From: a virus
Lineage: Duplodnaviria; Heunggongvirae; Uroviricota; Caudoviricetes
Length of the DNA: 64,000 nt
Virus record (IMG/VR): IMGVR_UViG_3300002220_000285
Direction: 5' to 3' (one strand)
Under the pieces are notes generated by a model that saw only the letters and a list, made by a program, of their open reading frames with translations, was not told the DNA's origin and did no database searches. Of this stretch, positions 1 through 12,174 are shown one piece after another. Position numbers and translations under genes: made by a program. Numbering within the stretch: position 1 is the stretch's first letter; the number at the start of each line of letters is the position of its first letter.

Positions 1-2
1 AA

Positions 3-251
3 GGCAGCGCCGAAGGCAGCGCCAGCGCGATCAAGTTTTCGGAAGGTTTTGAACCGGAACGGCTGCTTTCGGTGGACACCGAAGGCGTCAAGGTTGTAGA
101 CGCGGAAAGCGTTATGGTGGCCATCATCCGCAAGGTTGGCGCCAAACGGGCCACCGCACTCCTGAAGCAAGTAGCGGCATGGGACGAATTCGTTAGTGCC
201 GAAGGCAAGCGCCGCGCCGAGCCTGCCGCCGCCGAACAGGCTGCAGCCTGA
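3..251 (+). CDS. hypothetical protein, 5'-truncated at window edge (C-terminal 82 aa: ...AEPAAAEQAAA*)
   Basis: Open frame from window start to TGA at 249-251; GC-rich codon usage like neighbours; function unknown. Confidence 0.45.
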   Translation, partial: GSAEGSASAIKFSEGFEPERLLSVDTEGVKVVDAESVMVAIIRKVGAKRATALLKQVAAWDEFVSAEGKRRAEPAAAEQAAA

Positions 252-266
252 CCCTAACAGGTTAGG
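252..266. repeat. variant copy of intergenic palindrome (CCTAAC-AG-GTTAGG)
   Basis: Immediately after stop of upstream CDS; 6-bp arms; followed by GGACGGGG-ACAA-CCCCGTCC hairpin. Confidence 0.5.
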
Positions 267-284
267 ACGGGGACAACCCCGTCC
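265..284 (+). terminator. GC-rich hairpin GGACGGGG-ACAA-CCCCGTCC (terminator-like, no U-run)
   Basis: 8-bp perfect stem, 4-nt loop, downstream of CDS ending at 251; member of GGACGGGGAC hairpin family also at 2561 and 31329. Confidence 0.35.
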
Positions 285-526
285 TAGCCTGTCTTACCTT
301 CCGCGAGTGCATTGGATAGCCTTCGGGCTATCTACTGTGTTTGCCGTGCCTGGAAACGAACGGCGGCGCCCTAAAAAGGCCGCTGGGAATCGCCTTCAGT
401 CTGGCTTCACCTGTTCTTTAACAATTTGGCTGATCTGTTCATCTATTTGGGGCCGAGCATCCCCTATAGATTTTGGCCCGGCTCGAGTCAGGGGAAATTT
501 CGTCCTGACTCAGAACCGAACCGAAT

Positions 527-541
527 CCCTAACCGTTAGGG
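527..541. repeat. intergenic palindrome CCCTAACCGTTAGGG
   Basis: Exact 15-mer, 7-bp inverted arms around central C. Confidence 0.6.
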
Positions 542-799
542 AAACAGATGACGGGCAGTTAGCTGCCCGCGGATGCAAAACTACCGTTTAGCGAGCCTCG
601 TGAGAGTCCGGGGCCGCTGTCGAGGAGAGGGCCGGGGACAACCCCGCACCTTACCCCTTCGATTCCTGCAGTAACGGGGAGAACGGCACGGGCCTAAGGC
701 TCGATGCAAGCCGCGGGAATCTACTGTCGGGGGCGATCCTGAGTGACGCTGCAAGCGAAGCCCCAACCCCTGTCCCATGCCCGGATTGGCAACCCGAAG

Positions 800-866
800 G
801 CAGGGGACGGGGATGACAAGCCCTGTGCAAGGTCCCTTGTGCAAGTGAGTCATCCCCGTCCCCTGC
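800..866. repeat. 18-bp perfect inverted repeat GCAGGGGACGGGGATGAC / GTCATCCCCGTCCCCTGC with 31-nt spacer
   Basis: Arms at 800-817 and 849-866 are exact reverse complements; followed by pyrimidine/T-rich tract CTTTGCTCTTACCCCTCTTTATCCTTATTGTT. Confidence 0.7.
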
Positions 867-879
867 CTTTGCTCTTACC

Positions 880-1320
880 CCTCTTTATCCTTATTGTTAA
901 ACGGTAGAAAACTTTAATAAAAAAAGGACTGTTTTTGTTTTTTCGCAAACGCGAAAATCCGCCTTTTCGCAAAAACGAAAACAAGCCGCCAGAAGTTAGA
1001 GGATAACAACTGGTCATTTGTTAAACCTTTTCGTTAAACGCCGAAACCCGCGCCAGTATTGGCTCTCCGCCTTATCGTACTGGAGTAACATCGCCGTTTA
1101 ACAGTTAAACGCCGTTTTTGTCCGCTAATTGCCCAATTAAGAGGCAAATCTGCTGCACTGCAACAGCCGTGCGACCTTGCCTAACCGACTTGAATTCGGT
1201 CTCAAACTCGATTTTGGTTTCACTTCTGGTCCTGTAAGAAACCCTTATCTGCCAGAGACCGTATCAGGGTGAAACGCCTGTTTTCCCTTGTTCGTGATGT
1301 TTAACGAACGCCACTTGAGG
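880..1320. promoter_or_regulatory. AT-rich regulatory island (candidate early promoter/operator cluster or origin) with TTTTCG-N6-8-CGAAAA and CGTTTAAC-A-GTTAAACG inverted repeats
   Basis: Local AT content far above the ~60% GC genome; TTTTCGCAAACGCGAAAA (939-956), TTTTCGCAAAAACGAAAA (964-981), TTTTCGTTAAACGCCGAAA (1028-1046), CGTTTAACAGTTAAACG (1095-1111); no ORF; precedes first early gene. Confidence 0.4.
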
Positions 1321-1330
1321 AGTACCTCCC

Positions 1331-1591
1331 ATGTTCCGCACCGGCCGCACCCGTCGCACCCTCCAGCCCCGCGCCTTCGTTTGCTACTGGGATTTCCAGG
1401 GCACGACTGTCGCCAACCGCACAACGACCCTTGCATCGGCTCGCAAACAAGCCGACCGCCGCCCGATGGGGTACGTGGTGGACACCCGAACCCATCGGAC
1501 CGTCTACCTCTCGGACTCCGCCCGCTCGCGCCTTGCTCGGCGCCTGGGAACCGGGATGGATTCCGTGAACGCCCTGCTGGCCCTTGCCTGA
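1331..1591 (+). CDS. hypothetical early protein (86 aa, basic, Arg-rich)
   Basis: ORF with GAGGAG SD 7 nt upstream; stop abuts palindrome at 1593. Confidence 0.6.
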   Translation: MFRTGRTRRTLQPRAFVCYWDFQGTTVANRTTTLASARKQADRRPMGYVVDTRTHRTVYLSDSARSRLARRLGTGMDSVNALLALA

Positions 1592-1592
1592 C

Positions 1593-1607
1593 CCCTAACC
1601 GTTAGGG
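1593..1607. repeat. intergenic palindrome CCCTAACCGTTAGGG
   Basis: Exact copy, followed by ATTGCCTCAGCGATCCCTGCACTACTTTTGGAGAGTCTC leader. Confidence 0.6.
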
Positions 1608-1648
1608 ATTGCCTCAGCGATCCCTGCACTACTTTTGGAGAGTCTCAA

Positions 1649-1828
1649 ATGGAAGTCGAAACCGCCCTGATGCTGTCCCCGCTGGAGCAGGCCGTGCTGA
1701 AGCAGGCCCTGCTCGTTCAGCGCAGCAACCTCTCCGCCGTCCTGGATTCGCTGGACAGTCGCAACTGCTTCCGCTCCTCGCTGAAACAGGAACTCGAGGT
1801 GGTGCGCGCCTTGCTGGAGCGCGTGTGA
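1649..1828 (+). CDS. hypothetical small protein (59 aa; below ORF-track cutoff)
   Basis: ATG 7 nt after CTACTTTTGGAGAGTCTCAA leader; uninterrupted frame checked codon by codon; TGA overlaps next ATG (TGATG). Confidence 0.55.
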   Translation: MEVETALMLSPLEQAVLKQALLVQRSNLSAVLDSLDSRNCFRSSLKQELEVVRALLERV

Positions 1829-2016
1829 TGGAAGACGCCCCCGTGATGATGCTGCACCTGACGGACGCACAAGCAAACCTGATTGGGTTTGCCTTGCGCG
1901 CCCTGATTCGATCGCACAGCGTGGAAATCTCCAAACTCTCGAATGCCGAGGAGATCAAGGCGCTCGCCCACGAGATCGCCGAAGCCGACGTTCTGCTTCG
2001 GGAGATTTACGAGTGA
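1828..2016 (+). CDS. hypothetical small protein (62 aa)
   Basis: Internal ATG of track ORF 1609..2016 chosen because of TGATG coupling with upstream gene. Confidence 0.55.
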   Translation: MEDAPVMMLHLTDAQANLIGFALRALIRSHSVEISKLSNAEEIKALAHEIAEADVLLREIYE

Positions 2017-2135
2017 TGTCGATGACGACTGCCTACGTTCTCGGTTCGACCTTGTTTCTGGTCTGGCTTCCGATCTACCTCCTGTTCCGGGACGGGGACG
2101 ACTTCGTCCCCTCCGACGACAACGACAACCCCTAA
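2016..2135 (+). CDS. small hydrophobic membrane peptide (39 aa, MSMTTAYVLGSTLFLVWLPIYLLF...)
   Basis: TGATG-coupled start; single predicted TM helix; TAA stop lies inside the palindrome at 2130-2144. Confidence 0.5.
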   Translation: MSMTTAYVLGSTLFLVWLPIYLLFRDGDDFVPSDDNDNP

Positions 2136-2144
2136 CCGTTAGGG
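2130..2144. repeat. intergenic palindrome CCCTAACCGTTAGGG
   Basis: Exact copy containing TAA stop of upstream peptide gene; followed by CTCTACTTCTGGAGAGTCTC leader. Confidence 0.6.
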
Positions 2145-2183
2145 GTCGCAGCGGCGATCCCTGCTCTACTTCTGGAGAGTCTC

Positions 2184-2285
2184 ATGCAGAACCTGGAATT
2201 CGTTTGGCCCCTCATTCTGGTGGTGGGTGGGGTGTTTCTGCTCGCGCTGATCGCGCTGATGGCTGGCGCCAATGGAAGGGACTGA
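2184..2285 (+). CDS. small hydrophobic membrane peptide (33 aa, MQNLEFVWPLILVVGGVFLLALIALMAG...)
   Basis: ATG 6 nt after GGAGAGTCTC; one TM helix; frame verified. Confidence 0.5.
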   Translation: MQNLEFVWPLILVVGGVFLLALIALMAGANGRD

Positions 2286-2287
2286 CA

Positions 2288-2557
2288 ATGGAACTGATTA
2301 CGCTGGCGAAGGTGTTCTGCGCCCTCGTGCGCCTCGCCGCCTCTCAAGCTGGAGTGGATGCTGCGGATACCGACCCGGACGACTACTGCGACTCCAACCT
2401 GGTGATGGCTGCCGCCTTTACCGCGGTCATGGGGCGTCCCCCCGTGCTGCCTTCCGAGGTGGAGGCCGATCCCCACCTTGCCCAGCAGGAGGACTCGGAC
2501 CTCGCCCTGTGGAACGGCGCCTACGGTATGTCTAGGTACTGCCTGTATCAACTGTGA
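2288..2557 (+). CDS. hypothetical protein (89 aa)
   Basis: Internal ATG of track ORF 1943..2557 directly after upstream TGA. Confidence 0.5.
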   Translation: MELITLAKVFCALVRLAASQAGVDAADTDPDDYCDSNLVMAAAFTAVMGRPPVLPSEVEADPHLAQQEDSDLALWNGAYGMSRYCLYQL

Positions 2558-2560
2558 CCC

Positions 2561-2598
2561 GGACGGGGACGACCGCTCACCCGCTGTCGTCCCCGTCC
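2561..2598 (+). terminator. GC-rich hairpin GGACGGGGACGA...TCGTCCCCGTCC (12-bp stem) fused to palindrome
   Basis: Perfect 12-bp inverted arms 2561-2572 / 2587-2598 right after stop of 2288..2557; no U-run. Confidence 0.4.
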
Positions 2599-2611
2599 CT
2601 AACCGTTAGGG
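2597..2611. repeat. intergenic palindrome CCCTAACCGTTAGGG
   Basis: Exact copy. Confidence 0.6.
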
Positions 2612-2625
2612 ATTGCCTCAGCGAT

Positions 2626-2638
2626 CCCTAACCGTTAG
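2626..2638. repeat. degenerate half-copy CCCTAACCGTTAG(cc)
   Basis: Second tandem copy 15 nt after previous one, right arm mutated. Confidence 0.4.
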
Positions 2639-2660
2639 CCCCTTACCTATGGAGTACCTC

Positions 2661-3332
2661 ATGAACGACCTGACCCGCAACATCGCCGCCGCCCGCATCC
2701 TCATGTTCGGGGGCCACCGCGCCGTCTCCAAGGACACGCTGGCCGCGGCGCTGGCGAGCGTCGATCCCGACACCTTCTTCGAGGTCGTCCAGCGGTACGT
2801 GAACGATTACGAAACCAATCAGGAACCCGATCAGGAACCCGTCCCGAAGGAGTCGAATTCCGATTCCGATTGCGGCCCCGTCCCCGTCCCCGCCAGGCGT
2901 TATTCGCTGACGTCCCCGCCGCCGTCCCCGTTCGATGGGGAGGAGGCGCTCAAGGAGTTTAACTTCCGCCTTCAGGATGAGCTTTTGGAGCGGGTGACGG
3001 GGGACAACCTCGCCCAGTCCTATGTCGCCTTGCTGCACGCCAACACGGCTGTCTTCTGCATGGGGGTGCGCGCTCACTTCGCCGATCTTACGGTGACGGA
3101 AGCTCTCGAGCTGTTCAAACTCCTCACCTCCACCTTGCCAGACTGGATGCTGGGGGATTCCGCTTACGCCCCTGCACGCCTCAGTCATGAGGAGCAGGGG
3201 GAATGGGCGAAGTCCTTCCGTAACCTCGAGATTCTGGAGTCGTACATCAGCTTCTTGATGACGACGGAGATCGGTTACTGGAGGAGTATGTCCGATATGC
3301 GCAGCTACTGCAGGTTCTTGTTCGAGGACTGA
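2661..3332 (+). CDS. hypothetical protein (223 aa)
   Basis: ATG preceded by GGAG; track ORF 2613..3332 same frame. Confidence 0.6.
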   Translation: MNDLTRNIAAARILMFGGHRAVSKDTLAAALASVDPDTFFEVVQRYVNDYETNQEPDQEPVPKESNSDSDCGPVPVPARRYSLTSPPPSPFDGEEALKEFNFRLQDELLERVTGDNLAQSYVALLHANTAVFCMGVRAHFADLTVTEALELFKLLTSTLPDWMLGDSAYAPARLSHEEQGEWAKSFRNLEILESYISFLMTTEIGYWRSMSDMRSYCRFLFED

Positions 3333-3358
3333 AGCAGGAGCAGGGGACGCCTGGCGTC

Positions 3359-3373
3359 CCCTAACCGTTAGGG
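3359..3373. repeat. intergenic palindrome CCCTAACCGTTAGGG
   Basis: Exact copy, followed by CCTACTTTTGGAGG leader. Confidence 0.6.
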
Positions 3374-3394
3374 AACCTACTTTTGGAGGTGAAG

Positions 3395-4219
3395 ATGAAA
3401 TACGAACTGATCCCGGAAGGCGACCTGTTCAGGCTGCGCGCCTTGAAAGCCTTTGGGGATGTGCGGGAAGGGGAGCTGGGAGGCCTTGTTCAGGGGCCTG
3501 AGAACCTCTCACAAGAGGGCCTGTGCTGGGTCGCCGGGAACGCTCGCGTCTACGGGGACGCTCGCGTCTACGGGGACGCTCGCATCTACGGGAACGCTCG
3601 GGTCTACGGGGGCGCTGAGGTCTCCGGGAGCGCTCAGGTCTACGGGGGCGCTCGGGTCTTCGGGAACACTGAGGTCTCCGGGAGCGCTCAGGTCTTCGGG
3701 AACACTGAGGTCTCCGGGAGCGCTCGCGTCTCCGGGAGCGCTAGGGTCTACGGGAACGCTCGCGTCTCCGGGAGCGCTCGGGTCTACGGGAGCGCTCGGG
3801 TCTACGGAAACTCTCGAGTCTACGGAAACTCTGACGTCTCCTGGTGCGCTTGCGTCTACGGGGACGCTAAGGTCTACGGGGACGCTCTCGTCAACGGTAA
3901 CGCTTGCGTCTCCGGGGACGCTTGCGTCTCCGTAGACGCTCATGTCTACGGGGACGCTCGGGTCTGCGGGAGCGCTCTGGTCTGCGGAAGAGACTTCCTG
4001 CTAGTCGGCCCGCTCGGCTCGCGCTCCTCCACGCTCACGATTACCCGCAACAGTGAGGGTACTCTGCTGTTTTCCACTGGATGCTTCCACGGCACCCTCG
4101 ACGAATTCGTCGCCGCCGTGAAAGAAGAGCACGAAGGTAACCAACACGAATTCGATTACCTCGCCGCGGTTGATCTGGCTAGGGTTATTTCTAGAAGTTG
4201 GCCCAACCCTAACCGTTAG
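3395..4219 (+). CDS. beta-helical hexapeptide-repeat protein (~25 repeats A-R-V-Y-G-[DNGS]; bactofilin-like V-x-G periodicity)
   Basis: Protein is ~25 consecutive 6-aa repeats (ARVYGD, ARIYGN, AEVSGS, AQVFGN...) flanked by non-repeat N- and C-terminal domains; encoded by 18-bp DNA tandem repeats. Confidence 0.7.
   Translation: MKYELIPEGDLFRLRALKAFGDVREGELGGLVQGPENLSQEGLCWVAGNARVYGDARVYGDARIYGNARVYGGAEVSGSAQVYGGARVFGNTEVSGSAQVFGNTEVSGSARVSGSARVYGNARVSGSARVYGSARVYGNSRVYGNSDVSWCACVYGDAKVYGDALVNGNACVSGDACVSVDAHVYGDARVCGSALVCGRDFLLVGPLGSRSSTLTITRNSEGTLLFSTGCFHGTLDEFVAAVKEEHEGNQHEFDYLAAVDLARVISRSWPNPNR
3532..3990. repeat. 18-bp tandem DNA repeat array (~25 units, consensus GGGGACGCTCGCGTCTAC) incl. 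an exact 36-bp duplication
   Basis: Visible periodicity; exact 36-mer GGGAACACTGAGGTCTCCGGGAGCGCTCAGGTCTTC occurs twice in tandem (~3662-3733). Confidence 0.8.
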
Positions 4220-4220
4220 G
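4207..4220. repeat. intergenic palindrome copy (CCCTAACCGTTAGG, one G short)
   Basis: Contains TAA stop of upstream gene. Confidence 0.5.
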
Positions 4221-4228
4221 AGTTTCTG

Positions 4229-4543
4229 ATGTACCTGTGTGAATTGATCGAGGCGCTCGAGAACGCGCCGCAAGACCTTGTCGTCCCCATCGGGTTTGCT
4301 GAGCCGCACAGCTACCGAGGCTACTACGAGGATTTGGAATTCACCCCTGCCATGAATGTGACCGTGGCCTCGATGCTTGCCCATGCGCGGTCCGCGTTGG
4401 GCGCGACGTTCTACGGCTACAAGGGCGGGGACTACAAGATGCACGAATACAGCCGCTGCTGGATCGGCGAGGCGGGGCTGGTGGAGGACCAATCGATCAG
4501 CCCGCTGCTGCTCAACTTCATGCTGGGCAACCCGGCCCTGTAG
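4229..4543 (+). CDS. hypothetical protein (104 aa)
   Basis: ATG after AGGAG SD. Confidence 0.6.
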   Translation: MYLCELIEALENAPQDLVVPIGFAEPHSYRGYYEDLEFTPAMNVTVASMLAHARSALGATFYGYKGGDYKMHEYSRCWIGEAGLVEDQSISPLLLNFMLGNPAL

Positions 4544-4558
4544 CCCTAACCATTAGGG
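4544..4558. repeat. intergenic palindrome variant CCCTAACCATTAGGG
   Basis: One-base variant. Confidence 0.5.
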
Positions 4559-4599
4559 ATTTGATCTGGACGGCCCCCACTACTTAAGGAGAACCTTTC

Positions 4600-5109
4600 A
4601 TGTCCGATTTCCAATTCGATACCAACCGCGAACCCTATGTCATCGTGGTCCCCTCGCACAACTACGGCTACGGTCACGTGTCGGCGCACTTCATGCTGCC
4701 CGACCCGAAGAACGGGTACTGGGATACCCGCATCGAGCTGGTGCTGCGTTGCCAGATCAACGGTGCCAGCTCCGATCATCGCCCCTTGAATCCCTACGCG
4801 GTTCGGTTCGAGGCTGAGGAGTTGAGGCTCAGGAACGTCAAGCGCCTTGCTCAGCTCGTCAACAAGCTGGAGAAGCTCCAGCCAGAACTCGAAGGGGAAG
4901 GGGACGACGGCACCGCCTTCTGGCTCACCCTGTTCACCGCGGCCCTGACGGCCTGGAAGGTGGATCACGTGTTCGTTCGGGAGTCGATTCGGGATTCCCG
5001 CGTCGTCCCGGACCTCCCGTATTTCACCAAGCTGAAGAATCCGGCAAACTCCCATGCCGCCCTCTCCTGCGTTGGGGAGGTGTTCAAGACGCTCTACAGG
5101 AGTATGTGA
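4600..5109 (+). CDS. hypothetical protein (169 aa)
   Basis: ATG after CTACTTAAGGAGAACC leader. Confidence 0.6.
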   Translation: MSDFQFDTNREPYVIVVPSHNYGYGHVSAHFMLPDPKNGYWDTRIELVLRCQINGASSDHRPLNPYAVRFEAEELRLRNVKRLAQLVNKLEKLQPELEGEGDDGTAFWLTLFTAALTAWKVDHVFVRESIRDSRVVPDLPYFTKLKNPANSHAALSCVGEVFKTLYRSM

Positions 5110-5471
5110 TGAAGCCAGAACCGAAGGATGTGATTCGCGCCTTGAACAAGGCTGCGAAGATGATCAGGGACGGGGACGTCATCTACATCTGTACCGCCCT
5201 CGACCATGTTCGCAAGTACCACCCGGAGCTGGCGCCTGCGGCGCTGTATTGCTGCAAGTGGGTCGATTCCATGCTGGGGAAAGGTCATACGCTGGAAATG
5301 TGGCTGAACGCCAATTGCGAGGACTATCGGGAAGCTGTCAGCAGCATCTCAATGCTCCCCTCAAGGTCTCCGCAGCTTCTGAGAGCGACCCAGAGAAGGT
5401 ACGACAAGGTGCAGCGCACCCGCCTTGCATGGATCGCGTGGATGAAGTCTGAGATCAAAACCAACCCCTAA
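5106..5471 (+). CDS. hypothetical protein (121 aa)
   Basis: ATGA overlap with upstream stop; TAA stop inside palindrome. Confidence 0.6.
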   Translation: MMKPEPKDVIRALNKAAKMIRDGDVIYICTALDHVRKYHPELAPAALYCCKWVDSMLGKGHTLEMWLNANCEDYREAVSSISMLPSRSPQLLRATQRRYDKVQRTRLAWIAWMKSEIKTNP

Positions 5472-5480
5472 CCGTTAGGG
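5466..5480. repeat. intergenic palindrome CCCTAACCGTTAGGG fused to GGGCTTCGGCCC tetraloop hairpin (5478-5489)
   Basis: Exact copy; its GGG arm forms the stem of a UUCG-loop hairpin. Confidence 0.6.
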
Positions 5481-5508
5481 CTTCGGCCCGTTACCTGAGG
5501 AGAAGTAC

Positions 5509-5916
5509 ATGCGTTGGTATCAACCTGGCGGCGACTACAGCCGCGATTACTGGCTGATTGATGATTCGGACCAGATCATCGCCCGAGTTCGTCACAACTT
5601 CGAGGGAACTTGGGCCTTCGGGGTTCGGGAGTTCCTGTCCGAGGAAGGCGCGAAGAAGGCGGCGATGCGCGCCAACGGCGCCACCTTGAAAGAGATTCTG
5701 GAAGTGTTCCCCCCGGAGGCTGCGCAGATGCCGGTTGGCGTCTGGCTTCCGTGGTCGGGCGGAAATCAGATTCCGGATGTACCGCCCGATCATCGGGTGG
5801 CGATCAGGTATCGGGGCGGTGAGGAAGGTGAACTCTCCTATGAGGGTGTTCCCCTTATGCGGTGGACCCACACAGAGACGACCGGGGACATCGTCGCCTA
5901 CAAGATCAACCCCTAA
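5509..5916 (+). CDS. hypothetical protein (135 aa)
   Basis: ATG after GAGGAG; TAA stop inside palindrome. Confidence 0.6.
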   Translation: MRWYQPGGDYSRDYWLIDDSDQIIARVRHNFEGTWAFGVREFLSEEGAKKAAMRANGATLKEILEVFPPEAAQMPVGVWLPWSGGNQIPDVPPDHRVAIRYRGGEEGELSYEGVPLMRWTHTETTGDIVAYKINP

Positions 5917-5925
5917 CCGTTAGGG
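5911..5925. repeat. intergenic palindrome CCCTAACCGTTAGGG
   Basis: Exact copy. Confidence 0.6.
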
Positions 5926-5932
5926 AATCAAC

Positions 5933-6406
5933 ATGACCGAAGAAGAAATGCGGGACGCTGACGTCCCGACGCTCGAGACCCTCGAGGAACTGACCGCCTA
6001 CATCTCAGAGCTGGTGAATCAGCCGCAGGACTACGGCACGTGCGTCTACGCGATGAGCATGGCCGCAACCGCGACGTTCAACTACGTTGCCCGAAATCTC
6101 GGGGTTACAGGATTCCAGGCCTCGTGTGCCGACATGGACATCCTTCGGCGCACTCGTGACCTCGAGGGTCCGTTCATGCTCGTCAAGGGCGAGAACCTTC
6201 TGTACCCGCAGTACGACATTCAGTCGAATGTTCAGGAATGGATCGGGAGCTGCACACCCTGGGCGGCGCAGGAGGCGAAGAAACTCCTTGCCAGCGCCAA
6301 CCCGGAAAACGTCGCGTACAACGTCTGGCGCCATTGGGAGAGGCTGGCCTCTGCAGGGGAGGAGCTGGACGCGCCTGAAACCTATGATCAAGGGGGTGGG
6401 GCGTGA
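5933..6406 (+). CDS. hypothetical protein (157 aa, acidic)
   Basis: ATG 8 nt after palindrome. Confidence 0.55.
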   Translation: MTEEEMRDADVPTLETLEELTAYISELVNQPQDYGTCVYAMSMAATATFNYVARNLGVTGFQASCADMDILRRTRDLEGPFMLVKGENLLYPQYDIQSNVQEWIGSCTPWAAQEAKKLLASANPENVAYNVWRHWERLASAGEELDAPETYDQGGGA

Positions 6407-7395
6407 CTAGTGAAGAACTGCGCGGACTGGCTCAGTGTATTGAAGACGGAAGCATCGGAAAAGGTGGGCGCATTGCGATTGCCCACCGGCTCCGCATCTA
6501 CGCCGATGCGCTGGATGCGGGGCCGGTGGCGTGGATGTATCCAGACGACTACGAGCGCATGGTGTCTGGCGAAACATTTTGCACCGTCTTCTCGGTGAAA
6601 GTGGGTAGCCCGACGCAGGGGACAACGACGGTTCAACTCTACCCGCACTGCATCCCGCCTGCGCCGCAACCTGTAAGCCACGCTGATGAGTTGGGGCCTG
6701 TCGCCGTGCGCTACGGGTGGGACGGCCACGGCTATCAGTACGCCGACAACGGCACGGGTAGCGACTGGCTGACGCGCCACGGTGACGCGGAGGCGCTCTA
6801 TCTCCACCCTCCAACGCTCCGACTTCCGGAGCCGATGGGCTACGCAGCGGGCATCGAGGCTGTAGCAGCGATGATCGAAGCGAAGGCGCAGTCGTTCGCC
6901 GGTCAGCATGGCTCAGACGACATGGGGAGCTTGTCGTTCGGGAGTGGCGACCACGCAGAGGCGAAGTCCGATTACTACAACTCGCTCGTTGAACTGGCGG
7001 AGGAGGTGCGGGCCATGCTCGACGCAGCCCCGACGCCATTTGTCGCCGAGAAGGCTCCCTATTCCGCCATCGTGGGTGATGGTGGCATGGACCCACGCAA
7101 CGCGCTCGACGAGTATCGCCACGCATCCGACCATTGCCTCGGCGCAGCGGAACAGGGCAAGGCCGATCAGGAATTGCTTGAGAAACTTCGCCGTCCCGCG
7201 CTCCGACTGCCGGAGCCGATGACGGATGGCGAGATGCTCGACGTGCTGATCGAGGCATCAAATGAGATGGCAGTCAATGCTGGCCACGACCCTGAATCGT
7301 TGAAGCTCGATCATGGAGCCATCCGGGACGGGCTTGTAGTGGGGCGGGCCATCGAATCAGCAATCCTGCGCCGAGTGAAGGAGGCGAACAAATGA
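6403..7395 (+). CDS. hypothetical protein (330 aa) with internal duplication (P[TA]LRLPEPM...IEA)
   Basis: GTG start overlapping upstream TGA (GTGA); repeated 20-aa segment at two positions. Confidence 0.55.
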   Translation: MTSEELRGLAQCIEDGSIGKGGRIAIAHRLRIYADALDAGPVAWMYPDDYERMVSGETFCTVFSVKVGSPTQGTTTVQLYPHCIPPAPQPVSHADELGPVAVRYGWDGHGYQYADNGTGSDWLTRHGDAEALYLHPPTLRLPEPMGYAAGIEAVAAMIEAKAQSFAGQHGSDDMGSLSFGSGDHAEAKSDYYNSLVELAEEVRAMLDAAPTPFVAEKAPYSAIVGDGGMDPRNALDEYRHASDHCLGAAEQGKADQELLEKLRRPALRLPEPMTDGEMLDVLIEASNEMAVNAGHDPESLKLDHGAIRDGLVVGRAIESAILRRVKEANK

Positions 7396-7694
7396 TGCGT
7401 GAGCGCCCCAAATTCAGCGACGAGGATTACATCGCATTCGACCCCTGCGAAGGGGACCGCGACGTAGACATCAAGTGTCGCACGGTCAAGCTCGTCGTCG
7501 CTCGCAAAGAGCATCCATGCTTCCTCGGCGAAGGCAGCTACGGCGACGGGCACACGATCAAACCGGGCAATCGCTACCGCTACGAGCGCGCGCTCGTGGA
7601 CAGCGACTACTGGGGGCAGTACCGCGTCTGCTTGCCGTGCATGGACAATTTCCTGAGTGGCTTGCGAGGGGAAGACGAGGAGGCGAACAAATGA
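7392..7694 (+). CDS. hypothetical Cys-containing protein (100 aa)
   Basis: ATGA overlap; several Cys/His residues (possible metal site). Confidence 0.5.
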   Translation: MMRERPKFSDEDYIAFDPCEGDRDVDIKCRTVKLVVARKEHPCFLGEGSYGDGHTIKPGNRYRYERALVDSDYWGQYRVCLPCMDNFLSGLRGEDEEANK

Positions 7695-8212
7695 AAATCC
7701 TCGAAGGATGGAAACTGGTGCCGGTGGAGGCTACCGACGAGATGCTGCACGACGCATCGGAAGTTGATCTAGCGGAGGAAACGCCGGAAGCCTACCAAGA
7801 GTACCTGCGCGCAATCCACCGTCGCTTAGTCGCATCCGCACCGACCCCGCCAGTGCAGCACTCGGACGATGTTGCCGTGGACAGGTTCGCGGCGGCGATG
7901 AAAGCGAAGCTGGCCCAGAAACGGGCCGAGGGCCGCGGCGGATGGGACGACCCCGAACAGTGCCCGGTCGAGCGGCTGGCGGAACTGCTGCACGAGCACG
8001 TCAGCAAGGGCGACCCTATCGACGTGGCGAATTTCGCAATGATGCTGTGGTGCCGAGGGGGCAGGACGACCCCGCCAGTGCAGCAGGACGACGAGGCGCT
8101 GGAGGTGCTGCGGGAGCTGGTTGCAGCTTGGGATTCCAACGGCAAGCTCCGCGAATTTGTTGACTCAGTGGGACGCGCCCGCGCCCTCATCGCAAAGCGA
8201 GGTGAGAAATGA
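7691..8212 (+). CDS. hypothetical protein (173 aa)
   Basis: ATG of MKILEGW... overlapping upstream stop (AAATGA); same frame as track ORF 7475..8212. Confidence 0.55.
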   Translation: MKILEGWKLVPVEATDEMLHDASEVDLAEETPEAYQEYLRAIHRRLVASAPTPPVQHSDDVAVDRFAAAMKAKLAQKRAEGRGGWDDPEQCPVERLAELLHEHVSKGDPIDVANFAMMLWCRGGRTTPPVQQDDEALEVLRELVAAWDSNGKLREFVDSVGRARALIAKRGEK

Positions 8213-8742
8213 CCGATGACCCCATCAGCCGCATCGAGGCGGCGCTGGAAGCCAATCCGACTCCGGGGCCGTGGCACTACAAAGAATGGGGCTCAGAAAT
8301 CGTCGACAGTGGAGTCGGATCGAGCCAACTGCTCATCGCCAAGGTTGCTGTGAATACCTTCAGGGACCAAGGGCGGCACAACGCCGACTTCATCGCCGCC
8401 TGCAACCCGACCGCCATCCGCACCCTGCTCGACCGACTCAAGGCTGCGGAGGCGGAGAACGAGCGGCTGCGCGCCGAGCTTGCCGAGTCACGCACGCCGA
8501 CGATGTTTTGGGACGCGGACGCTGGCAGTGAAGGCTATCTTGGCTTCACTTTGCAGGAGGCCGTCGAGGATGCGTGCGACTCGATGGGTCGGATGGATGA
8601 CCCGTATGAACTCGAAGTCTCATGCGCTCGCGCACTGCCCGGCATCAAGGTCCGCGCGTGGATCGACGATAAGGACAATCTGCAGTGGGATGAGGTCGAA
8701 GACGCCGCCATGCGCAAGGAGGGCGACGATGCCGATCTTTGA
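8209..8742 (+). CDS. hypothetical protein (177 aa), Ead/Ea22-like N-terminus (PGPWHY)
   Basis: ATGA overlap; N-terminal motif recalled from phage Ead/Ea22-like proteins; coiled-coil middle. Confidence 0.5.
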   Translation: MTDDPISRIEAALEANPTPGPWHYKEWGSEIVDSGVGSSQLLIAKVAVNTFRDQGRHNADFIAACNPTAIRTLLDRLKAAEAENERLRAELAESRTPTMFWDADAGSEGYLGFTLQEAVEDACDSMGRMDDPYELEVSCARALPGIKVRAWIDDKDNLQWDEVEDAAMRKEGDDADL

Positions 8743-8983
8743 AATCCAAATCGAAACCGTCGCGGTCGTCATTGCTGAAGATGCTGCCCACGCCGTCGAG
8801 ATCGTCTCTGATGAAATGCTCCAGATCGTTTCGGATGCGATCGGCTCGTCCCTCGAGGTCCACTCGGGAACCGAAATCGAAAGCCTCGACGAGCTGCCGA
8901 GAGGCTGGGACCCCATGTGCATTCCTTACGGCGGGGACGGGGACACCCGCCTCAAGGACCTCTTACCCGAAACCCAACCCTAA
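8729..8983 (+). CDS. hypothetical acidic protein (84 aa)
   Basis: ATG after AAGGAGG; internal start of track ORF 8480..8983; TAA in palindrome. Confidence 0.5.
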   Translation: MPIFEIQIETVAVVIAEDAAHAVEIVSDEMLQIVSDAIGSSLEVHSGTEIESLDELPRGWDPMCIPYGGDGDTRLKDLLPETQP

Positions 8984-8992
8984 CCGTTAGGG
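8978..8992. repeat. intergenic palindrome CCCTAACCGTTAGGG
   Basis: Exact copy. Confidence 0.6.
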
Positions 8993-9001
8993 AGGACTCC
9001 A

Positions 9002-9418
9002 ATGCTGCTCATCATCCGCGGCCTACCCGGTTCGGGTAAGTCGACGCTGGCTCGCGCCCTGTGCGAGGCAACCCCAGGAGCCAGACGCTACGAGGCTGAC
9101 GACTTCTTCTATAAGGAAGGCGAGTACCACTACGTCTCCTCCTACATCAAGCAGGCGCACAAGACCTGCCTCTACAACGTCAGGTACTCGCTGGAAAACC
9201 GGGCGCCGCTCGTCATCGTCTCCAACACCTTCCGCGAGGCGTGGGAAATGCGCCCGTATGCGGCCCTGGCTCGAGAACTCGAGGTCGATCTGCAACTGAT
9301 CGAGGTTCAGGGGAACTGGCCTTCGATTCACGCGCCGGATGAGGTTCGGCAACGGATGGCAGCCACCTGGCAGAAGGTGACGCTGACCGCGGACAAGCAC
9401 ATTCAACCGAGGAAATGA
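9002..9418 (+). CDS. P-loop NTPase / AAA_33-like kinase (possible polynucleotide or nucleotide kinase)
   Basis: Walker A GLPGSGKST at N-terminus, small single-domain protein. Confidence 0.6.
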   Translation: MLLIIRGLPGSGKSTLARALCEATPGARRYEADDFFYKEGEYHYVSSYIKQAHKTCLYNVRYSLENRAPLVIVSNTFREAWEMRPYAALARELEVDLQLIEVQGNWPSIHAPDEVRQRMAATWQKVTLTADKHIQPRK

Positions 9419-9419
9419 C

Positions 9420-9728
9420 ATGAGCCTAGTTCATCGGCAGTTTCTGTCCTACCCACACCACGACTTGCCTGCGATCCCCGTGGGCTGGGTGGACGATTCA
9501 TGGCACAACGACCACTGCCCGAGCTGGATCGTCGGGGAGTACCGCGACGATCTGGTCAAGGTCTACATCGACTGGCCTGAAGTGGAGGCTCGCTTGTCAC
9601 CCAGCGCCATGCGTTATTCAGTCGTGCTCGACTACAACTCTGGTGACGGGGTCTGGGAGGAGTTTGAAACCTTCGCGGAGGTGCGTGACTACCTGAAACA
9701 GTTCGACATCACCCCGTATTACCCCTAA
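9420..9728 (+). CDS. hypothetical protein (102 aa)
   Basis: ATG 2 nt after upstream stop; TAA stop in palindrome variant. Confidence 0.55.
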   Translation: MSLVHRQFLSYPHHDLPAIPVGWVDDSWHNDHCPSWIVGEYRDDLVKVYIDWPEVEARLSPSAMRYSVVLDYNSGDGVWEEFETFAEVRDYLKQFDITPYYP

Positions 9729-9737
9729 CAGTTAGGG
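9723..9737. repeat. intergenic palindrome variant CCCTAACAGTTAGGG
   Basis: Centre base changed. Confidence 0.5.
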
Positions 9738-9750
9738 ACCACTTCTGGAG

Positions 9751-10041
9751 ATGCCCGTGTTTGAGAAGCTGATGATTGTGTCGAGCAGTCACGTGACCAG
9801 CAATACCGCGGAGTGGATGGACACCAAGATCGGCGGAATGACGCTGCCAGGTGCCCCGTTCAAAGAGGAAGGTTGGATCGTCGACCTCTCGGAGTTGGCA
9901 GACAAGTCTGACCTGCCGCACTGCCTTGCCCAGCTTGTCGATATCGCCCGAGCCGGGGATGCCAGCTTCCTGTTCCTGAGTGAGTCAGGGTCCAGGTTGC
10001 CTGAACTGCCCGTGTACACGTGGGGCAAGAACTTTCCCTAA
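9751..10041 (+). CDS. hypothetical protein (96 aa)
   Basis: ATG after CTTCTGGAGATG leader. Confidence 0.55.
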   Translation: MPVFEKLMIVSSSHVTSNTAEWMDTKIGGMTLPGAPFKEEGWIVDLSELADKSDLPHCLAQLVDIARAGDASFLFLSESGSRLPELPVYTWGKNFP

Positions 10042-10050
10042 TGGTTAGGG
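10036..10050. repeat. intergenic palindrome variant CCCTAATGGTTAGGG
   Basis: Still a perfect palindrome with altered centre. Confidence 0.5.
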
Positions 10051-10072
10051 ATTCAACTTTTGGAGAGTGTCG

Positions 10073-10477
10073 ATGCAAATCGTTTCATGTGGGGGGCGCG
10101 AGCCTGACCTGATTGGGTTGTCGCTAAAGGAAGCTCACCAGCTCCGAGTGCTGGCTCAAGAGTTGCGTTCCAATCCACCCCCGCAAGGGGAGCGGACCAG
10201 GGAGCTCGGAGAGTGGCTCCACCTGCTGCTCGACTGTGCTGCACCGCTGTGCCTTGCTTCGACGCTGCAGTCTTATGTCGTGCTGTACCGGATCGAGAAG
10301 GAGATGTCCCCGCTTGATCCTCCGCAAGGGTTCCTATGCCAGGCGGAGGACGACGAGCACGCCGAAGAGCAGTGCGAGAACGCCTACCCGAACGCCGGGG
10401 TTCTTTGGGTGTTCGAGGGGGATTCCTACGACGATGCGCTGGATGATTATTACAACGCGACTGGGGAGGCCCTATGA
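10073..10477 (+). CDS. hypothetical acidic protein (134 aa)
   Basis: ATG 7 nt after GGAGAG; track ORF 10067 uses GTG. Confidence 0.55.
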   Translation: MQIVSCGGREPDLIGLSLKEAHQLRVLAQELRSNPPPQGERTRELGEWLHLLLDCAAPLCLASTLQSYVVLYRIEKEMSPLDPPQGFLCQAEDDEHAEEQCENAYPNAGVLWVFEGDSYDDALDDYYNATGEAL

Positions 10478-10932
10478 AAGTCAAAGTCGCTGAGGCCGAG
10501 GGCATCGTCCTCGACTGGCTGGTGGCGAAGTGCGAAGGGTTGACCCCAACGCTACATAAGAACCCATATGGCTATTGGGTGATGCCAAATATCCCTGGTA
10601 GTTACTCGACCGACTGGTCCCTCGGTGGGCCGATCATCGAGAAAGCCAACATCACCATTATCCGCGCAAACGATGAGTATGAGGTGGACGCAAAGGGGCT
10701 CTCCACCAGCAAGCCTATCCCCTGCTGGTTCGCTGAGTGCAGCCGTTGGACCGGGCACTCCCTGACCACCAGCTACGAAGGTGAGAGCATGGAACCAACC
10801 TTCATGATCGGGGAGTTGGATGGCTGTTACGGAGCCACCCCGCTCATCGCAGCCATGCGCTGCCTTTGTTGTAGTAAACTCGGCGATGTTGTAGACATTC
10901 CGGAGGAACTATGCCAGCAGCAAAGAAGTTAG
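10474..10932 (+). CDS. hypothetical protein (152 aa)
   Basis: ATGA overlap. Confidence 0.55.
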   Translation: MKVKVAEAEGIVLDWLVAKCEGLTPTLHKNPYGYWVMPNIPGSYSTDWSLGGPIIEKANITIIRANDEYEVDAKGLSTSKPIPCWFAECSRWTGHSLTTSYEGESMEPTFMIGELDGCYGATPLIAAMRCLCCSKLGDVVDIPEELCQQQRS

Positions 10933-11597
10933 ACGGTCAGGTGTTTGGACGCTTAACGGTGTTAAACCGCAGTGGGAATCTTGGTGGACGGGTCTTATGG
11001 TCATGCCAGTGCGCGTGTGGAAGATTGCATGAAGCAGTCAGTCATGCGCTTACGTCAGGGCATACAAAGTCCTGCGGCTGCTGGAAAGACGAGCGCAACA
11101 CCTCGACACCCTCAATTCACGGACACGCATCACGAGCTAAAGGTATTAGCCCTACCTACCGGACCTGGCAATGCATGATTACTCGCTGCACTAATGTGTC
11201 TGTTAAGTCATACAAAGACTATGGGGCGCGAGGCATATCTGTATATGCAGGTTGGCTAGTGTTTGAGAACTTTCTTGCCGACATGGGTGAGAAACCATCA
11301 GGCATGTCAATTGAGCGTATGGATAACGAAAAGGGCTACGGGCCGGATAACTGCAAGTGGGCCACCAAGATAGAACAGGCGCGAAATACTCGCGCTAACA
11401 AGTTCATCAGCTACAAAGGAAAACGCATGACACAAGCTGAATTCGCAGAGGTTATTGGACATAACCAATCAACAGTAAGTTATCGACTACGTTCCGGATG
11501 GACTCCTGAGCAAGTTGCTAACACACCTGCAAACCCAGGCAACCGTGTGGCCGACAAGCTGGGTGACGAGGTAGACGTCCCTGAGGAGCTGCTATGA
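10911..11597 (+). CDS. HNH-family homing endonuclease-like protein, paralogue 1 (N-terminal CxCxCG zinc motif, C-terminal ...GYGPDNCKWATKIEQARN)
   Basis: Shares FGRLTV / CxCxCG / YxxYGGRGI / NC[KRQ]WAT motifs with ORFs at 35644, 39595, 41748. Confidence 0.65.
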   Translation: MPAAKKLDGQVFGRLTVLNRSGNLGGRVLWSCQCACGRLHEAVSHALTSGHTKSCGCWKDERNTSTPSIHGHASRAKGISPTYRTWQCMITRCTNVSVKSYKDYGARGISVYAGWLVFENFLADMGEKPSGMSIERMDNEKGYGPDNCKWATKIEQARNTRANKFISYKGKRMTQAEFAEVIGHNQSTVSYRLRSGWTPEQVANTPANPGNRVADKLGDEVDVPEELL

Positions 11598-11872
11598 GTC
11601 CCTATGGAACGCTCACCGTCACCTACACCGCTCAGGTTTTTGTTCCCGGTGAGGTGTACGACGCTTTCTACTTCACTCGAGAATTCGGGCGTTTCGCTCG
11701 GAATGTCGCAAAGGACGCCAACAAATTCGGAGAGCTTCTCGACGAGGAGCCTAACGGGGTTCCTTCAGTCCAGTGGGCTGACTTCTTCGTGCGCCGAGAT
11801 GCTGAGGACTTCATCAACAACTGGCACAACCGCATCCTGCAATGGCAGGAAGAGTTGCGCTCAAGGCCCTAA
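11594..11872 (+). CDS. hypothetical protein (92 aa)
   Basis: ATGA overlap with HNH gene stop. Confidence 0.55.
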   Translation: MSPYGTLTVTYTAQVFVPGEVYDAFYFTREFGRFARNVAKDANKFGELLDEEPNGVPSVQWADFFVRRDAEDFINNWHNRILQWQEELRSRP

Positions 11873-11881
11873 CCGTTAGGG
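11867..11881. repeat. intergenic palindrome CCCTAACCGTTAGGG
   Basis: Exact copy; TAA of upstream gene inside. Confidence 0.6.
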
Positions 11882-11901
11882 CTTCTACTTCTGAGGTAGC
11901 T

Positions 11902-12174
11902 ATGACGAACCTTGAACTTCTCGCCCGCGCTGTTGTCGATCGCTGGGATAACGGGGACCTTGCCGAAGCTGTCCGAGAGCTGGCTTACGAAATTGCGAGG
12001 CAGGACGAACTTCGCAGCTCGTTTCAGCAAGAGATCACCCGCCTTCGCAACGCGGGGGAGGTCGAGCTTGATGACGAGCCGCTGATCTCTGAGGCCAACG
12101 AAGGCATCTGGGTTGGCACCTGGACTTGGATCGACCTTGAGAATGAGGAGAACAGTGATGGCGATGCGTATTGA
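11902..12174 (+). CDS. hypothetical acidic protein (90 aa)
   Basis: ATG after TCTACTTCTGAGGTAGCT leader. Confidence 0.5.
   Translation: MTNLELLARAVVDRWDNGDLAEAVRELAYEIARQDELRSSFQQEITRLRNAGEVELDDEPLISEANEGIWVGTWTWIDLENEENSDGDAY

What the first reader, a model, noticed from the sequence alone, without database searches (positions are those of the whole stretch)
3395..4219. Early-region protein made of ~25 hexapeptide repeats (A-R-V-Y-G-D), encoded by near-identical 18-bp tandem DNA repeats
The repeat periodicity (V-x-G every 6 residues) matches beta-helical folds such as bactofilin or hexapeptide left-handed beta-helix. The DNA repeats are so similar, including an exact 36-bp duplication, that recent expansion and repeat-number variation are likely. 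A beta-helical rod made early in infection could be a DNA mimic or anti-restriction scaffold (compare pentapeptide-repeat proteins), or a polymerising cytoskeletal-like element. Either would be unusual for a siphovirus early gene.
Basis: partly seen in the sequence, partly recalled or inferred. Interest (0 to 1): 0.65.

Follow-up and report, generated by a model that had tools for sequence, protein, structure and literature searches.

The report
Capped hexapeptide beta-solenoid early phage protein
This is a real phage gene for a rod-shaped repeat protein from a very large, widespread family whose function nobody has tested, so the repeats are genuine but the gene is common rather than unusual.

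Summary
The CDS at 3395-4219 (+) encodes 274 aa with 25 in-register hexapeptides, [N/D/S]-A-R-V-[Y/S]-G, at aa 49-198. The 18-bp DNA units are 72-78% identical, not near-identical. The longest exact copy is 35 bp.

The protein is a diverged member (at most 54% identity) of a known but uncharacterised family. It matches Pfam PF18836 (YdcK beta-solenoid repeat) and PHROGs 7964 and 5070. More than 7,500 homologues exist, including 85 phage records across Firmicutes, Proteobacteria, Actinobacteria and Bacteroidetes. Where the records are annotated, the gene lies in early or replication-proximal regions.

The architecture has three parts: a YdcK-like N-terminal cap, a solenoid of variable length, and a family-specific C-terminal domain (four strands, two helices) with near-invariant G-C-F, His and Tyr.

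Codon homogeneity, and whole-unit indels between near-identical homologues, show that the array turns over by slippage.

The DNA-mimic, bactofilin-polymer and acyltransferase readings each fail a test. The best reading is a non-enzymatic spacer rod that presents conserved end domains. This is an inference.

Solenoid handedness is unresolved: homology to YdcK implies left-handed, but the AlphaFold model appears right-handed.

Verdict: new member of a known kind; modest interest.

The parts
3395..4219 (+). Complete CDS, 274 aa, including the TAG stop: three-part capped beta-solenoid protein
   Evidence: GC3 supports this frame. PHROG 7964 E=7e-103. PF18836 87.7 bits.
3395..3538 (+). N-terminal cap (aa 1-48), non-repetitive and homologous to the N-terminus of YdcK
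   Evidence: phmmer aligns aa 14-47 to 2F9C residues 29-62. The AlphaFold model has strands at 3-8, 11-16 and 28-32, with pLDDT about 81 for aa 1-30. Near-invariant residues are listed.
3539..3988 (+). 25 hexapeptide units (aa 49-198) encoded by an 18-bp tandem array: the beta-solenoid
   Evidence: Tandem Repeats Finder, period 18, 25.2 copies, 78% matches. Unit table. Codon homogeneity.
3655..3725 (+). Exact 35-bp copies (3655-3689 and 3691-3725): a two-unit (36-bp) duplication inside the array
   Evidence: Identity at unit distance 2 exceeds adjacent-unit identity across most of units 4-13.
3989..4192 (+). C-terminal domain (aa 199-266), four strands then two helices; G229-C230-F231, G233, F238, H246, Y255 conserved across the family
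3342..3362 (+). GC-rich 9-bp hairpin just after the stop of the preceding ORF, overlapping the start of the intergenic motif
   Evidence: RNA fold of 3335-3400. The whole-segment z-score is only -1.6.
3360..3372 (+). Upstream copy of the intergenic motif CCTAACCGTTAGG
   Evidence: 31 matches counting both strands (17 + strand sites), against 0.05 expected.
3377..3389 (+). Conserved pre-start box CTACTTTTGGAG(G), which contains the Shine-Dalgarno sequence
   Evidence: Flanks of the motif sites listed side by side; the box recurs before many early-gene starts.
4208..4220 (+). Downstream copy of the intergenic motif; its TAG is the stop codon of the gene

Best explanation
The feature is an ordinary protein-coding gene for a three-part protein.

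(1) The first roughly 48 aa form an N-terminal cap homologous to that of the bacterial protein YdcK.

(2) Twenty-five hexapeptides follow. Ala and Val point into the core, Gly and Asn/Asp form the corners, and positions 3 and 5 (Arg/Glu/Gln and Tyr/Ser) face outward. If there are three units per turn, as in YdcK-type helices, this gives about 8 turns and a rod roughly 4 nm long.

(3) The last part is a roughly 70-aa domain of four strands and two helices, found with this solenoid wherever the N-terminal sequence was inspected. It carries a near-invariant Gly-Cys-Phe turn, a His and a Tyr.

Shown: the protein is a diverged member of a very large family of phage and prophage proteins that lie near early or replication genes. 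The repeat array is maintained and resized by replication slippage or unequal recombination, so unit number drifts from about 1 to about 28. This gene sits near the top of that range.

Inferred: the solenoid is a non-catalytic rigid spacer. The conserved cap and C-terminal domain are the working ends, and bind a host or phage macromolecule early in infection as an accessory host-takeover or counter-defence factor. The target is unknown.
For: Family membership:
- PF18836 scores 87.7 bits against a cut-off of 30.
- PHROG 7964 E=7e-103, PHROG 5070 E=9e-76, and the C-terminal domain matches phrog_20532 at E=7e-41.
- YdcK 2F9C matches at E=1e-14 with the single sequence, including the non-repetitive cap, and at E=1.2e-32 with the family profile.
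- More than 7,595 homologues were found, and 85 phage records across four bacterial phyla.

Genomic position. In phiRM10, Sfi19, Boilgate, two metagenomic contigs and LfeInf the gene lies between regulatory or antirepressor genes and recombination or replication genes, or next to a terminal repeat. In the window it is an early gene of the + strand block that continues into ligase, SNF2 helicase, PolA and an SbcC-like ATPase. Its ten neighbours have no Pfam match that reaches a curated cut-off; one has a weak, sub-threshold Ead/Ea22-like hit. No partner gene is conserved among 118 neighbours from 21 loci.

Spacer idea. Estimated unit number is 0.5-28, median about 18, in 171 family members. One complete member, P0170 (133 aa), has only a few units. 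Conserved residues within the repeats are essentially the core-facing Ala/Val and corner Gly of the hexapeptide; the remaining near-invariant residues lie in the two end domains. The same cap and solenoid carry at least two other C-terminal domains.

Slippage. Codon use is homogeneous within each gene but differs between lineages. Members of the same 90% cluster, or otherwise near-identical proteins, differ by 1, 2, 3 or 5 whole units.
Against: - No experiment or publication on any family member was found. The functional part is inference only.
- 'Early' expression is inferred from gene position, not measured.
- The near-invariant Cys (98%) and His (89%) in the C-terminal domain could form a catalytic or metal site. 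If so, 'non-enzymatic' would be wrong for the protein as a whole.
- The regular Tyr/Arg/Trp outer ladders could themselves be the binding surface rather than a passive spacer.
- Solenoid handedness is unresolved.
- The sample used for the unit-count distribution is biased towards top hits.
Confidence: 0.6

Rival explanations
1. It is a trimeric left-handed beta-helix acyltransferase, like LpxA, GlmU or WlbB, that modifies a host or phage substrate.
Against: No Pfam Hexapep match even at E up to 10. Position i+1 of the canonical LbH motif is Tyr/Ser here rather than Gly/Ala/Glu/Asp. There are no loop insertions (0% indels). Conserved residues within the repeats are essentially the core-facing Ala/Val and corner Gly. 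Unit number varies from about 1 to 28, and varies between near-identical proteins, which does not fit a fixed inter-subunit active site. The model superposes on LbH enzymes only at rmsd 11-13 A. YdcK itself has no demonstrated activity.
Confidence: 0.08
2. It is a bactofilin-like protein that polymerises into a cytoskeletal filament in the infected cell.
For: There is a sub-threshold Bactofilin HMM match at 24.6 bits. Some homologues pass the cut-off, for example P0030 at 36.7 bits. The AlphaFold model appears right-handed, as bactofilin is (bactofilin handedness is from my own knowledge).
Against: The score is below Pfam's cut-off of 27.9. With the family profile, PDB bactofilin does not appear at E up to 0.01, while YdcK scores 1.2e-32. 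Both helix ends carry folded, conserved domains, whereas bactofilins polymerise through exposed helix ends (the latter point is from my own knowledge). Members with only a few units exist.
Confidence: 0.07
3. It is a DNA-mimic anti-restriction protein, analogous to the pentapeptide-repeat proteins Qnr and MfpA, or to Ocr and ArdA.
Against: The period is 6, not 5. The solenoid has net charge +1.8 and pI 8.3, the whole protein is only -4, and the family median for the repeat region is -2.5. Known DNA mimics are strongly acidic (my own knowledge). PADLOC gave no match.
Confidence: 0.05
4. The 18-bp array acts at the DNA level, for example as iterons or a replication origin, and the ORF is incidental. 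Alternatively, the protein is a virion fibre.
For: There are 25 tandem 18-bp units in the early part of the replication-gene block. There are weak PHROG matches to tail-fibre families at E=0.003-0.1.
Against: The hexapeptide pattern is conserved at the protein level across phyla using different codons in each lineage, so selection acts on the protein. GC3 supports coding in this frame. In every annotated phage examined the gene lies outside the structural gene cluster. In this window the tail genes lie on the other strand at about 50.6-63.7 kb.
Confidence: 0.03

Closest known systems
YdcK (E. coli / Salmonella; PDB 2F9C, 2PIG; Pfam PF18836 B_solenoid_ydck; NCBIfam NF040481)
   Same: The non-repetitive N-terminal cap is homologous, and the same type of hexapeptide solenoid follows it.
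   Different: It is not an orthologue: the NCBIfam score is 77.8 against a cut-off of 350. In YdcK the match continues along the chain to at least residue 297 of 334, whereas this protein ends in a distinct alpha/beta domain with no PDB sequence match. The repeats here are far more regular. YdcK's own function is unknown.
PHROG families 7964, 5070 and 20532 (phage proteins of unknown function), e.g. Sfi19 orf229, phiRM10 gp34, Boilgate gp64
   Same: Same three-part architecture and same position near early or replication genes.
   Different: At most 53-54% identity. This copy has about 25 units against a family median of about 18. Its C-terminal motif reads T-G-C-F and E-H-E where the family consensus is C-G-C-F and T-H-G.
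Bactofilins (Pfam PF04519; PDB 6RIA)
   Same: A hexapeptide-like beta-helix with weak sequence similarity; a turn of about 18 residues is expected by analogy with YdcK-type helices (my own knowledge). The AlphaFold model seems to share the right-handed coil.
   Different: The score is below the family cut-off. The helix is capped at both ends by folded domains. It is much longer and variable in length. There is no evidence of polymerisation.
Left-handed beta-helix acyltransferases (LpxA, LpxD, GlmU, WlbB; Pfam PF00132)
   Different: No Hexapep HMM match, no catalytic loops or residues, variable unit number, and rmsd of 11-13 A on superposition.

Membership tests
YdcK-type beta-solenoid repeat proteins (Pfam PF18836) | Repeat HMM match above Pfam's gathering score | tested here: met
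   87.7 bits against a cut-off of 30, with 8 matched stretches.
YdcK-type beta-solenoid repeat proteins (Pfam PF18836) | Non-repetitive N-terminal cap homologous to YdcK | tested here: met
   aa 14-47 align to 2F9C residues 29-62. The family profile scores E=1.2e-32.
YdcK orthologue (NCBIfam NF040481 equivalog) | Full-length score above the curated cut-off of 350 bits | tested here: not met
   77.8 bits, and only profile positions 26-217 of 326 are matched.
   E=7e-103, 9e-76 and 7e-41 respectively.
Phage family PHROG 7964 / 5070 | C-terminal signature G-C-F-x-G ... F ... H ... Y | tested here: met
   G229, C230, F231, G233, F238, H246 and Y255 are present. These positions are 89-99% conserved in 286 domain sequences.
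LbH acyltransferases (Pfam PF00132, trimeric LpxA-like enzymes) | Hexapep HMM match and the motif [LIV]-[GAED]-X2-[STAV]-X | tested here: not met
   No Hexapep match at E up to 10. Position i+1 is Tyr/Ser.
LbH acyltransferases (Pfam PF00132, trimeric LpxA-like enzymes) | Catalytic residues or loops projecting from the coil | tested here: not met
   0% indels in the array. Conserved residues within the repeats are essentially Ala, Val and Gly.
LbH acyltransferases (Pfam PF00132, trimeric LpxA-like enzymes) | Left-handed coil | tested here: inconclusive
   Homology to YdcK implies a left-handed coil. The AlphaFold model superposes on LbH proteins at 11-13 A and on right-handed helices at 3-4 A. 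No coordinates were available.
LbH acyltransferases (Pfam PF00132, trimeric LpxA-like enzymes) | Homotrimer | not testable with these tools
   Only monomer prediction was offered.
Bactofilin (Pfam PF04519) | HMM match above the gathering score | tested here: not met
   24.6 bits against 27.9. PDB bactofilin matches at E=0.43 and is absent from the profile search.
Bactofilin (Pfam PF04519) | Exposed helix ends that allow end-to-end polymerisation | tested here: not met
   Folded cap at aa 1-48 and folded domain at aa 199-266 in the models.
Bactofilin (Pfam PF04519) | Filament formation | not testable with these tools
   Needs microscopy.
Pentapeptide-repeat / DNA-mimic proteins | Five-residue period | tested here: not met
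   Period is 18 bp, or 6 aa.
Pentapeptide-repeat / DNA-mimic proteins | Strongly acidic, DNA-like surface | tested here: not met
   Solenoid net charge +1.8, pI 8.3.

The most novel reading that the evidence does not exclude
The family may be a modular effector-on-a-stick system of phages. A slippage-prone solenoid of freely adjustable length would present a previously unrecognised C-terminal domain, whose near-invariant Cys and His would form a catalytic or metal site. That domain would inactivate or hijack a conserved host factor or defence system early in infection. Unit number would be tuned in an arms race. The solenoid might also be a right-handed, bactofilin-like coil despite its homology to left-handed YdcK.
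Probability: 0.2. Interest if true: 0.65.

Novelty: new member of a known kind. Interest (0 to 1): 0.3.

Why it matters
For this window, the finding turns an eye-catching repeat into an annotated gene: a YdcK-like capped beta-solenoid of PHROGs 7964 and 5070. It also removes the claim that the gene is unusual.

The wider point is modest but real. Several thousand phage and prophage genomes across bacterial phyla carry this gene near their early genes, and nobody has tested what it does. The family combines a slippage-driven, length-variable rod with two strongly conserved end domains and interchangeable C-terminal modules. That makes it a reasonable candidate for an uncharacterised host-takeover or counter-defence function. 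It is also a test case for whether structure prediction assigns the correct handedness to hexapeptide solenoids.

Tried and rejected
- **Close relatives of this phage, to compare unit number.** Megablast of 1-12000 against phage records found nothing. PolA is at most 28% identical to any phage record. The best homologue of the protein is 49-54% identical among 5.8 billion proteins. The best matches are 59% in IMG/VR and 57% in GTDB genomes. A scan of IMG/VR for the intergenic motif plus the pre-start box found nothing.
- **Literature.** Searches for YdcK, PF18836, hexapeptide with anti-defence, bactofilin with phage early genes, left-handed beta-helix with phage, orf229/Sfi19, polymer-forming cytoskeletal, and trimeric LpxA-like turned up no functional study. 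The preprint containing 'bactofilin' cites it only in its references.
- **Foldseek of the full model against the PDB.** No match at E up to 0.001.
- **PADLOC.** No match.
- **Conserved neighbour gene.** None; 62 different Pfam families occur among 118 neighbours.
- **Promoter scan of 1-9000.** Below chance, and nothing near the gene.
- **Other-frame ORFs in the array** (3453-3935 +, 3509-3943 -). Rejected as by-products of the repeat.

Full report
**1. The observation**

The + strand ORF runs from ATG 3395 to TAG 4217-4219 and encodes 274 aa. GGAGG at 3385-3389 lies 5 nt before this ATG. It is part of a box, CTACTTTTGGAG, that recurs before many neighbouring starts. ATG 3395 is therefore preferred over the upstream TTG at 3383. 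G+C by codon position (0.65 / 0.49 / 0.74) fits coding in this frame.

Tandem Repeats Finder reports one array at 3535-3987, with period 18, 25.2 copies, 78% matches and no indels. In codon register there are 25 hexapeptides at aa 49-198. Ala occupies position 2 in 21 of 25 units, Val position 4 in 24 of 25, and Gly position 6 in 23 of 25. Position 1 is N/D/S, position 3 is mostly Arg, and position 5 is Tyr or Ser.

- The units are 72% identical on average (61-94% between neighbours), so they are not near-identical.
- The longest exact copy is 35 bp (3655-3689 = 3691-3725), a two-unit duplication.

The DNA is more uniform than the protein repeat requires. All 21 Ala codons are GCT, against 22% of Ala codons in 26 other ORFs of the window. 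Val is GTC in 24 of 25 units (44% elsewhere). Gly is GGG in 19 of 25 (27% elsewhere).

**2. What it is**

The protein matches these families and structures:
- Pfam PF18836 (YdcK beta-solenoid repeat) at 87.7 bits against a cut-off of 30. The Bactofilin model scores 24.6 bits, below its 27.9 cut-off. The classical Hexapep model does not match.
- PHROG 7964 (E=7e-103) and 5070 (E=9e-76). The C-terminal part alone matches phrog_20532 (E=7e-41). All three are of unknown function.
- In the PDB, only YdcK (2F9C/2PIG) matches clearly, at E=1e-14. The alignment includes the non-repetitive N-terminus, aa 14-47 against residues 29-62. A profile of 77 family members raises this to E=1.2e-32. A few LbH enzymes follow near E=1e-3 to 1e-4, and no bactofilin appears.

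It is not a YdcK orthologue, scoring 77.8 bits against a cut-off of 350.

The family is very large. More than 7,595 proteins match at E up to 1e-5, though none is more than 54% identical to this one. Translated search finds it in 85 phage records infecting Streptococcus, Bacillus, Lactobacillus, Ruminococcus, Vibrio, Aeromonas, Xanthomonas, Liberibacter, Mycobacterium, Bacteroides and others. These records carry inconsistent names, including hypothetical protein, acyltransferase, glycerol kinase and polymer-forming cytoskeletal protein.

**3. Anatomy**

Alignment of 77 members shows three parts.

*Cap.* The first roughly 48 aa have near-invariant residues (G26, G29, G30, E35, N37, L38, W45, V46).

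*Solenoid.* Here the conserved residues are essentially the core-facing Ala/Val and the corner Gly.

*C-terminal domain.* This is a roughly 70-aa domain. AlphaFold2 gives the whole protein pLDDT 80, with a two-residue strand every six residues. Confidence dips at both junctions. The C-terminal domain alone scores pLDDT 91 and pTM 0.81, with four strands and two helices.

In 286 copies of the C-terminal domain the signature is G(97%)-S ... T(94%) ... C(84%)-G(97%)-C(98%)-F(97%)-x-G(95%) ... F(97%) ... V(90%) ... H(89%) ... Y(99%). The window protein keeps C230, F231, G233, F238, H246 and Y255.

An exhaustive profile search finds the domain in 3,929 representative proteins. In the full-length examples read it lies at or near the C-terminus and is preceded by hexapeptides. 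One protein has an unrelated N-terminal segment in place of the cap.

**4. The solenoid as a variable spacer**

The estimated unit number in 171 complete members ranges from 0.5 to 28. The median is about 18, and the 5th-95th percentile range is 6-22. The window protein, at 25, is near the top. A complete 133-aa member, P0170, has only a few units between the cap and the C-terminal domain.

Close relatives differ by whole units:
- P0076 and P0142 (220 and 190 aa) differ by five units.
- P0099 and P0156 (289 and 307 aa) differ by three units.
- P0114 and P0157 (246 and 258 aa) differ by two units.
- P0048, P0013 and P0004 have the same end domains, with 216, 222 (after removing a 23-aa N-terminal extension) and 228 aa.

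A 40-member cluster showed no variation among its listed full-length members, so the instability is not extreme.

In many homologues the array uses largely a single codon for Ala, Val and Gly, and that choice differs between lineages. Examples are phiRM10 with GCT x25, GTA x24 and GGT x24; L004 with GCA x21; L016 with GCT, GTG and GGC x15 each; and L013 with GCC x21 and GTG x25. This is the signature of within-gene concerted evolution by slippage or unequal exchange. It also shows that selection acts on the protein, not on a DNA motif.

The same cap and solenoid are also found with other C-terminal domains (P0005, P0029 and P0068 share one; P0030 and P0052 have others), and as tandem double modules (P0002, P0167).

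**5. Genomic context**

In the window, the gene lies near the start of a long + strand block (roughly 1.6-46.8 kb). The block continues into an ATP-dependent ligase, SNF2 helicase, family A DNA polymerase and an SbcC-like ATPase. An integrase, a lysis-type hydrolase and tail genes lie on the - strand. The ten neighbouring genes have no Pfam match that reaches a curated cut-off. One has a weak, sub-threshold Ead/Ea22-like hit at 21.4 bits against a cut-off of 27, and several match PHROGs of unknown function.

In annotated relatives the position is similar:
- In phiRM10 the gene lies after the repressor, antirepressor and cox-like genes, and before the Gam, Rad52 and NinB/G genes.
- In Sfi19 it lies just before the helicase and primase genes.
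- In Boilgate it lies a few genes after two methyltransferase genes and before the primase/polymerase.
- In a prophage-like contig it lies after Bro/ANT and before an SMC-like ATPase.
- In a contig with lambdoid/P22-like genes (DUF1317, P22 Y8K6, DksA/TraR) it lies next to KilR, an AAA_24 ATPase and methylases.
- In the herellevirus LfeInf it lies beside the terminal repeat.

Among 118 neighbours from 21 loci, no partner recurs. It behaves as a stand-alone accessory gene of the early region. 'Early' is inferred from position only.

**6. Mechanism**

*Shown:* family membership, three-part architecture, variable length, slippage-type evolution, and position in the genome.

*Inferred:* the solenoid is a rigid, non-catalytic spacer, and the conserved cap and C-terminal domain do the binding. 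Three arguments support this. Almost no residue within the repeats is conserved other than Ala, Val and Gly. Length varies freely, down to almost none. The C-terminal module is exchangeable.

The target is unknown. Strong conservation of both end domains across phages of distant phyla suggests a widely conserved host component or a phage-intrinsic process.

From the strand-helix topology, C230 and H246 could lie close together and form a catalytic or metal site. I could not check this because no coordinates were available. It is speculation.

**7. Rival explanations**

*Acyltransferase.* This fails on the Hexapep HMM, the i+1 motif position, the absence of loops and conserved polar residues, and the variable length.

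*Bactofilin polymer.* This fails on the Pfam cut-off, the profile search and the capped ends.

*DNA mimic.* This fails on period and charge. The solenoid is +1.8 with pI 8.3, the whole protein is -4, and the family median for the repeat region is -2.5.

*DNA-level function or virion fibre.* This is contradicted by protein-level conservation with lineage-specific codons, and by genome position.

**8. An unresolved point: handedness**

**9. Novelty and verdict**

This is a diverged, unusually long member of a known but uncharacterised family. No publication on the family's function was found.

The DNA-mimic and filament ideas are not supported, and the gene is common, not unusual.

Interest is modest (0.3). 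The main value is that a very widespread early phage gene family remains untested.

Noticed in passing
window 528-17556 (17 + strand sites, e.g. 528, 1594, 2131, 2598, 3360, 4208, 5467, 5912, 8979, 11868, 12990, 17544): A 13-bp imperfect palindrome, CCTAACCGTTAGG (usually CCCTAACCGTTAGGG), sits at or near junctions between + strand early ORFs, nearly always in the same orientation. There are 31 matches on both strands against 0.05 expected. Its TAG often serves as the stop codon, so many ORFs end in -PNR. A conserved box, CTACTT(T/C)TGGAG, often follows 0-25 nt later, just before the next start. It may be a regulatory or RNA-processing site, or a module boundary. No match to motif plus box was found in IMG/VR.
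   Followed up: partly
window 1591-1647, 2128-2184, 2595-2651: Three copies of a 57-nt element (88% and 61% identical to the first). Each comprises the motif, a hairpin (TAGGGATTGCCTCAGCGATCCCTG, 10 pairs, flagged as terminator-like) and the pre-start box. The copies are spaced about 470-540 bp apart, in a region with weak coding signal.
   Followed up: partly
window 3453-3935 (+) and 3509-3943 (-): Long ORFs (160 and 144 aa) in other frames of the repeat array, with their own repeats (e.g. GTLAST, PVDPSA). They are by-products of the 18-bp periodicity, not genes.
   Followed up: yes
whole window: The phage lineage looks new. There is no megablast match for 1-12000 in 50,697 phage records. The family A DNA polymerase (36267-39611) is at most 28% identical to any phage record, the best being Pseudomonas and Vibrio phages. 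G+C is 59%.
   Followed up: partly
window 46955-48061 (-): A tyrosine integrase (PF00589, E=1e-21) lies between the + strand replication block and the - strand lysis and tail genes. This suggests a temperate or integrase-bearing phage.
   Followed up: no
window 16050-17057 (+): A 336-aa ORF has a weak IS110-family transposase domain match (PF02371, 23.4 bits against a cut-off of 21.3) inside the early gene block.
   Followed up: no
window 21805-22725 (+): An SPFH/Band 7 domain protein (PF01145, E=2e-14) is encoded among the replication genes.
   Followed up: no
window 50624-56725 (-) and 59035-63690 (-): Two very large late ORFs of 2,033 aa and 1,551 aa. From their size and position they are presumably a tail fibre or host-specificity protein and a tape measure protein. 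They were not searched. The neighbouring ORF 56757-57815 has a GpJ FNIII-A domain.
   Followed up: no
homologues P0005, P0029, P0068; P0030, P0052; P0002, P0167: The same cap and solenoid carry other C-terminal domains with no Pfam match. One recurring type contains the motifs ...GLHVS... and ...GK(I/V)RCKK.... Some proteins are tandem fusions of two complete cap-solenoid-domain modules.
   Followed up: partly
loci L035, L037, L038, L040, L042, L044, L046, L047, L052, L053: Half of the 20 bacterial-genome matches are in Bartonella species, often on short contigs. Several matches are longer than the query (up to about 1.2 kb), suggesting very long arrays or paralogues there.
   Followed up: no
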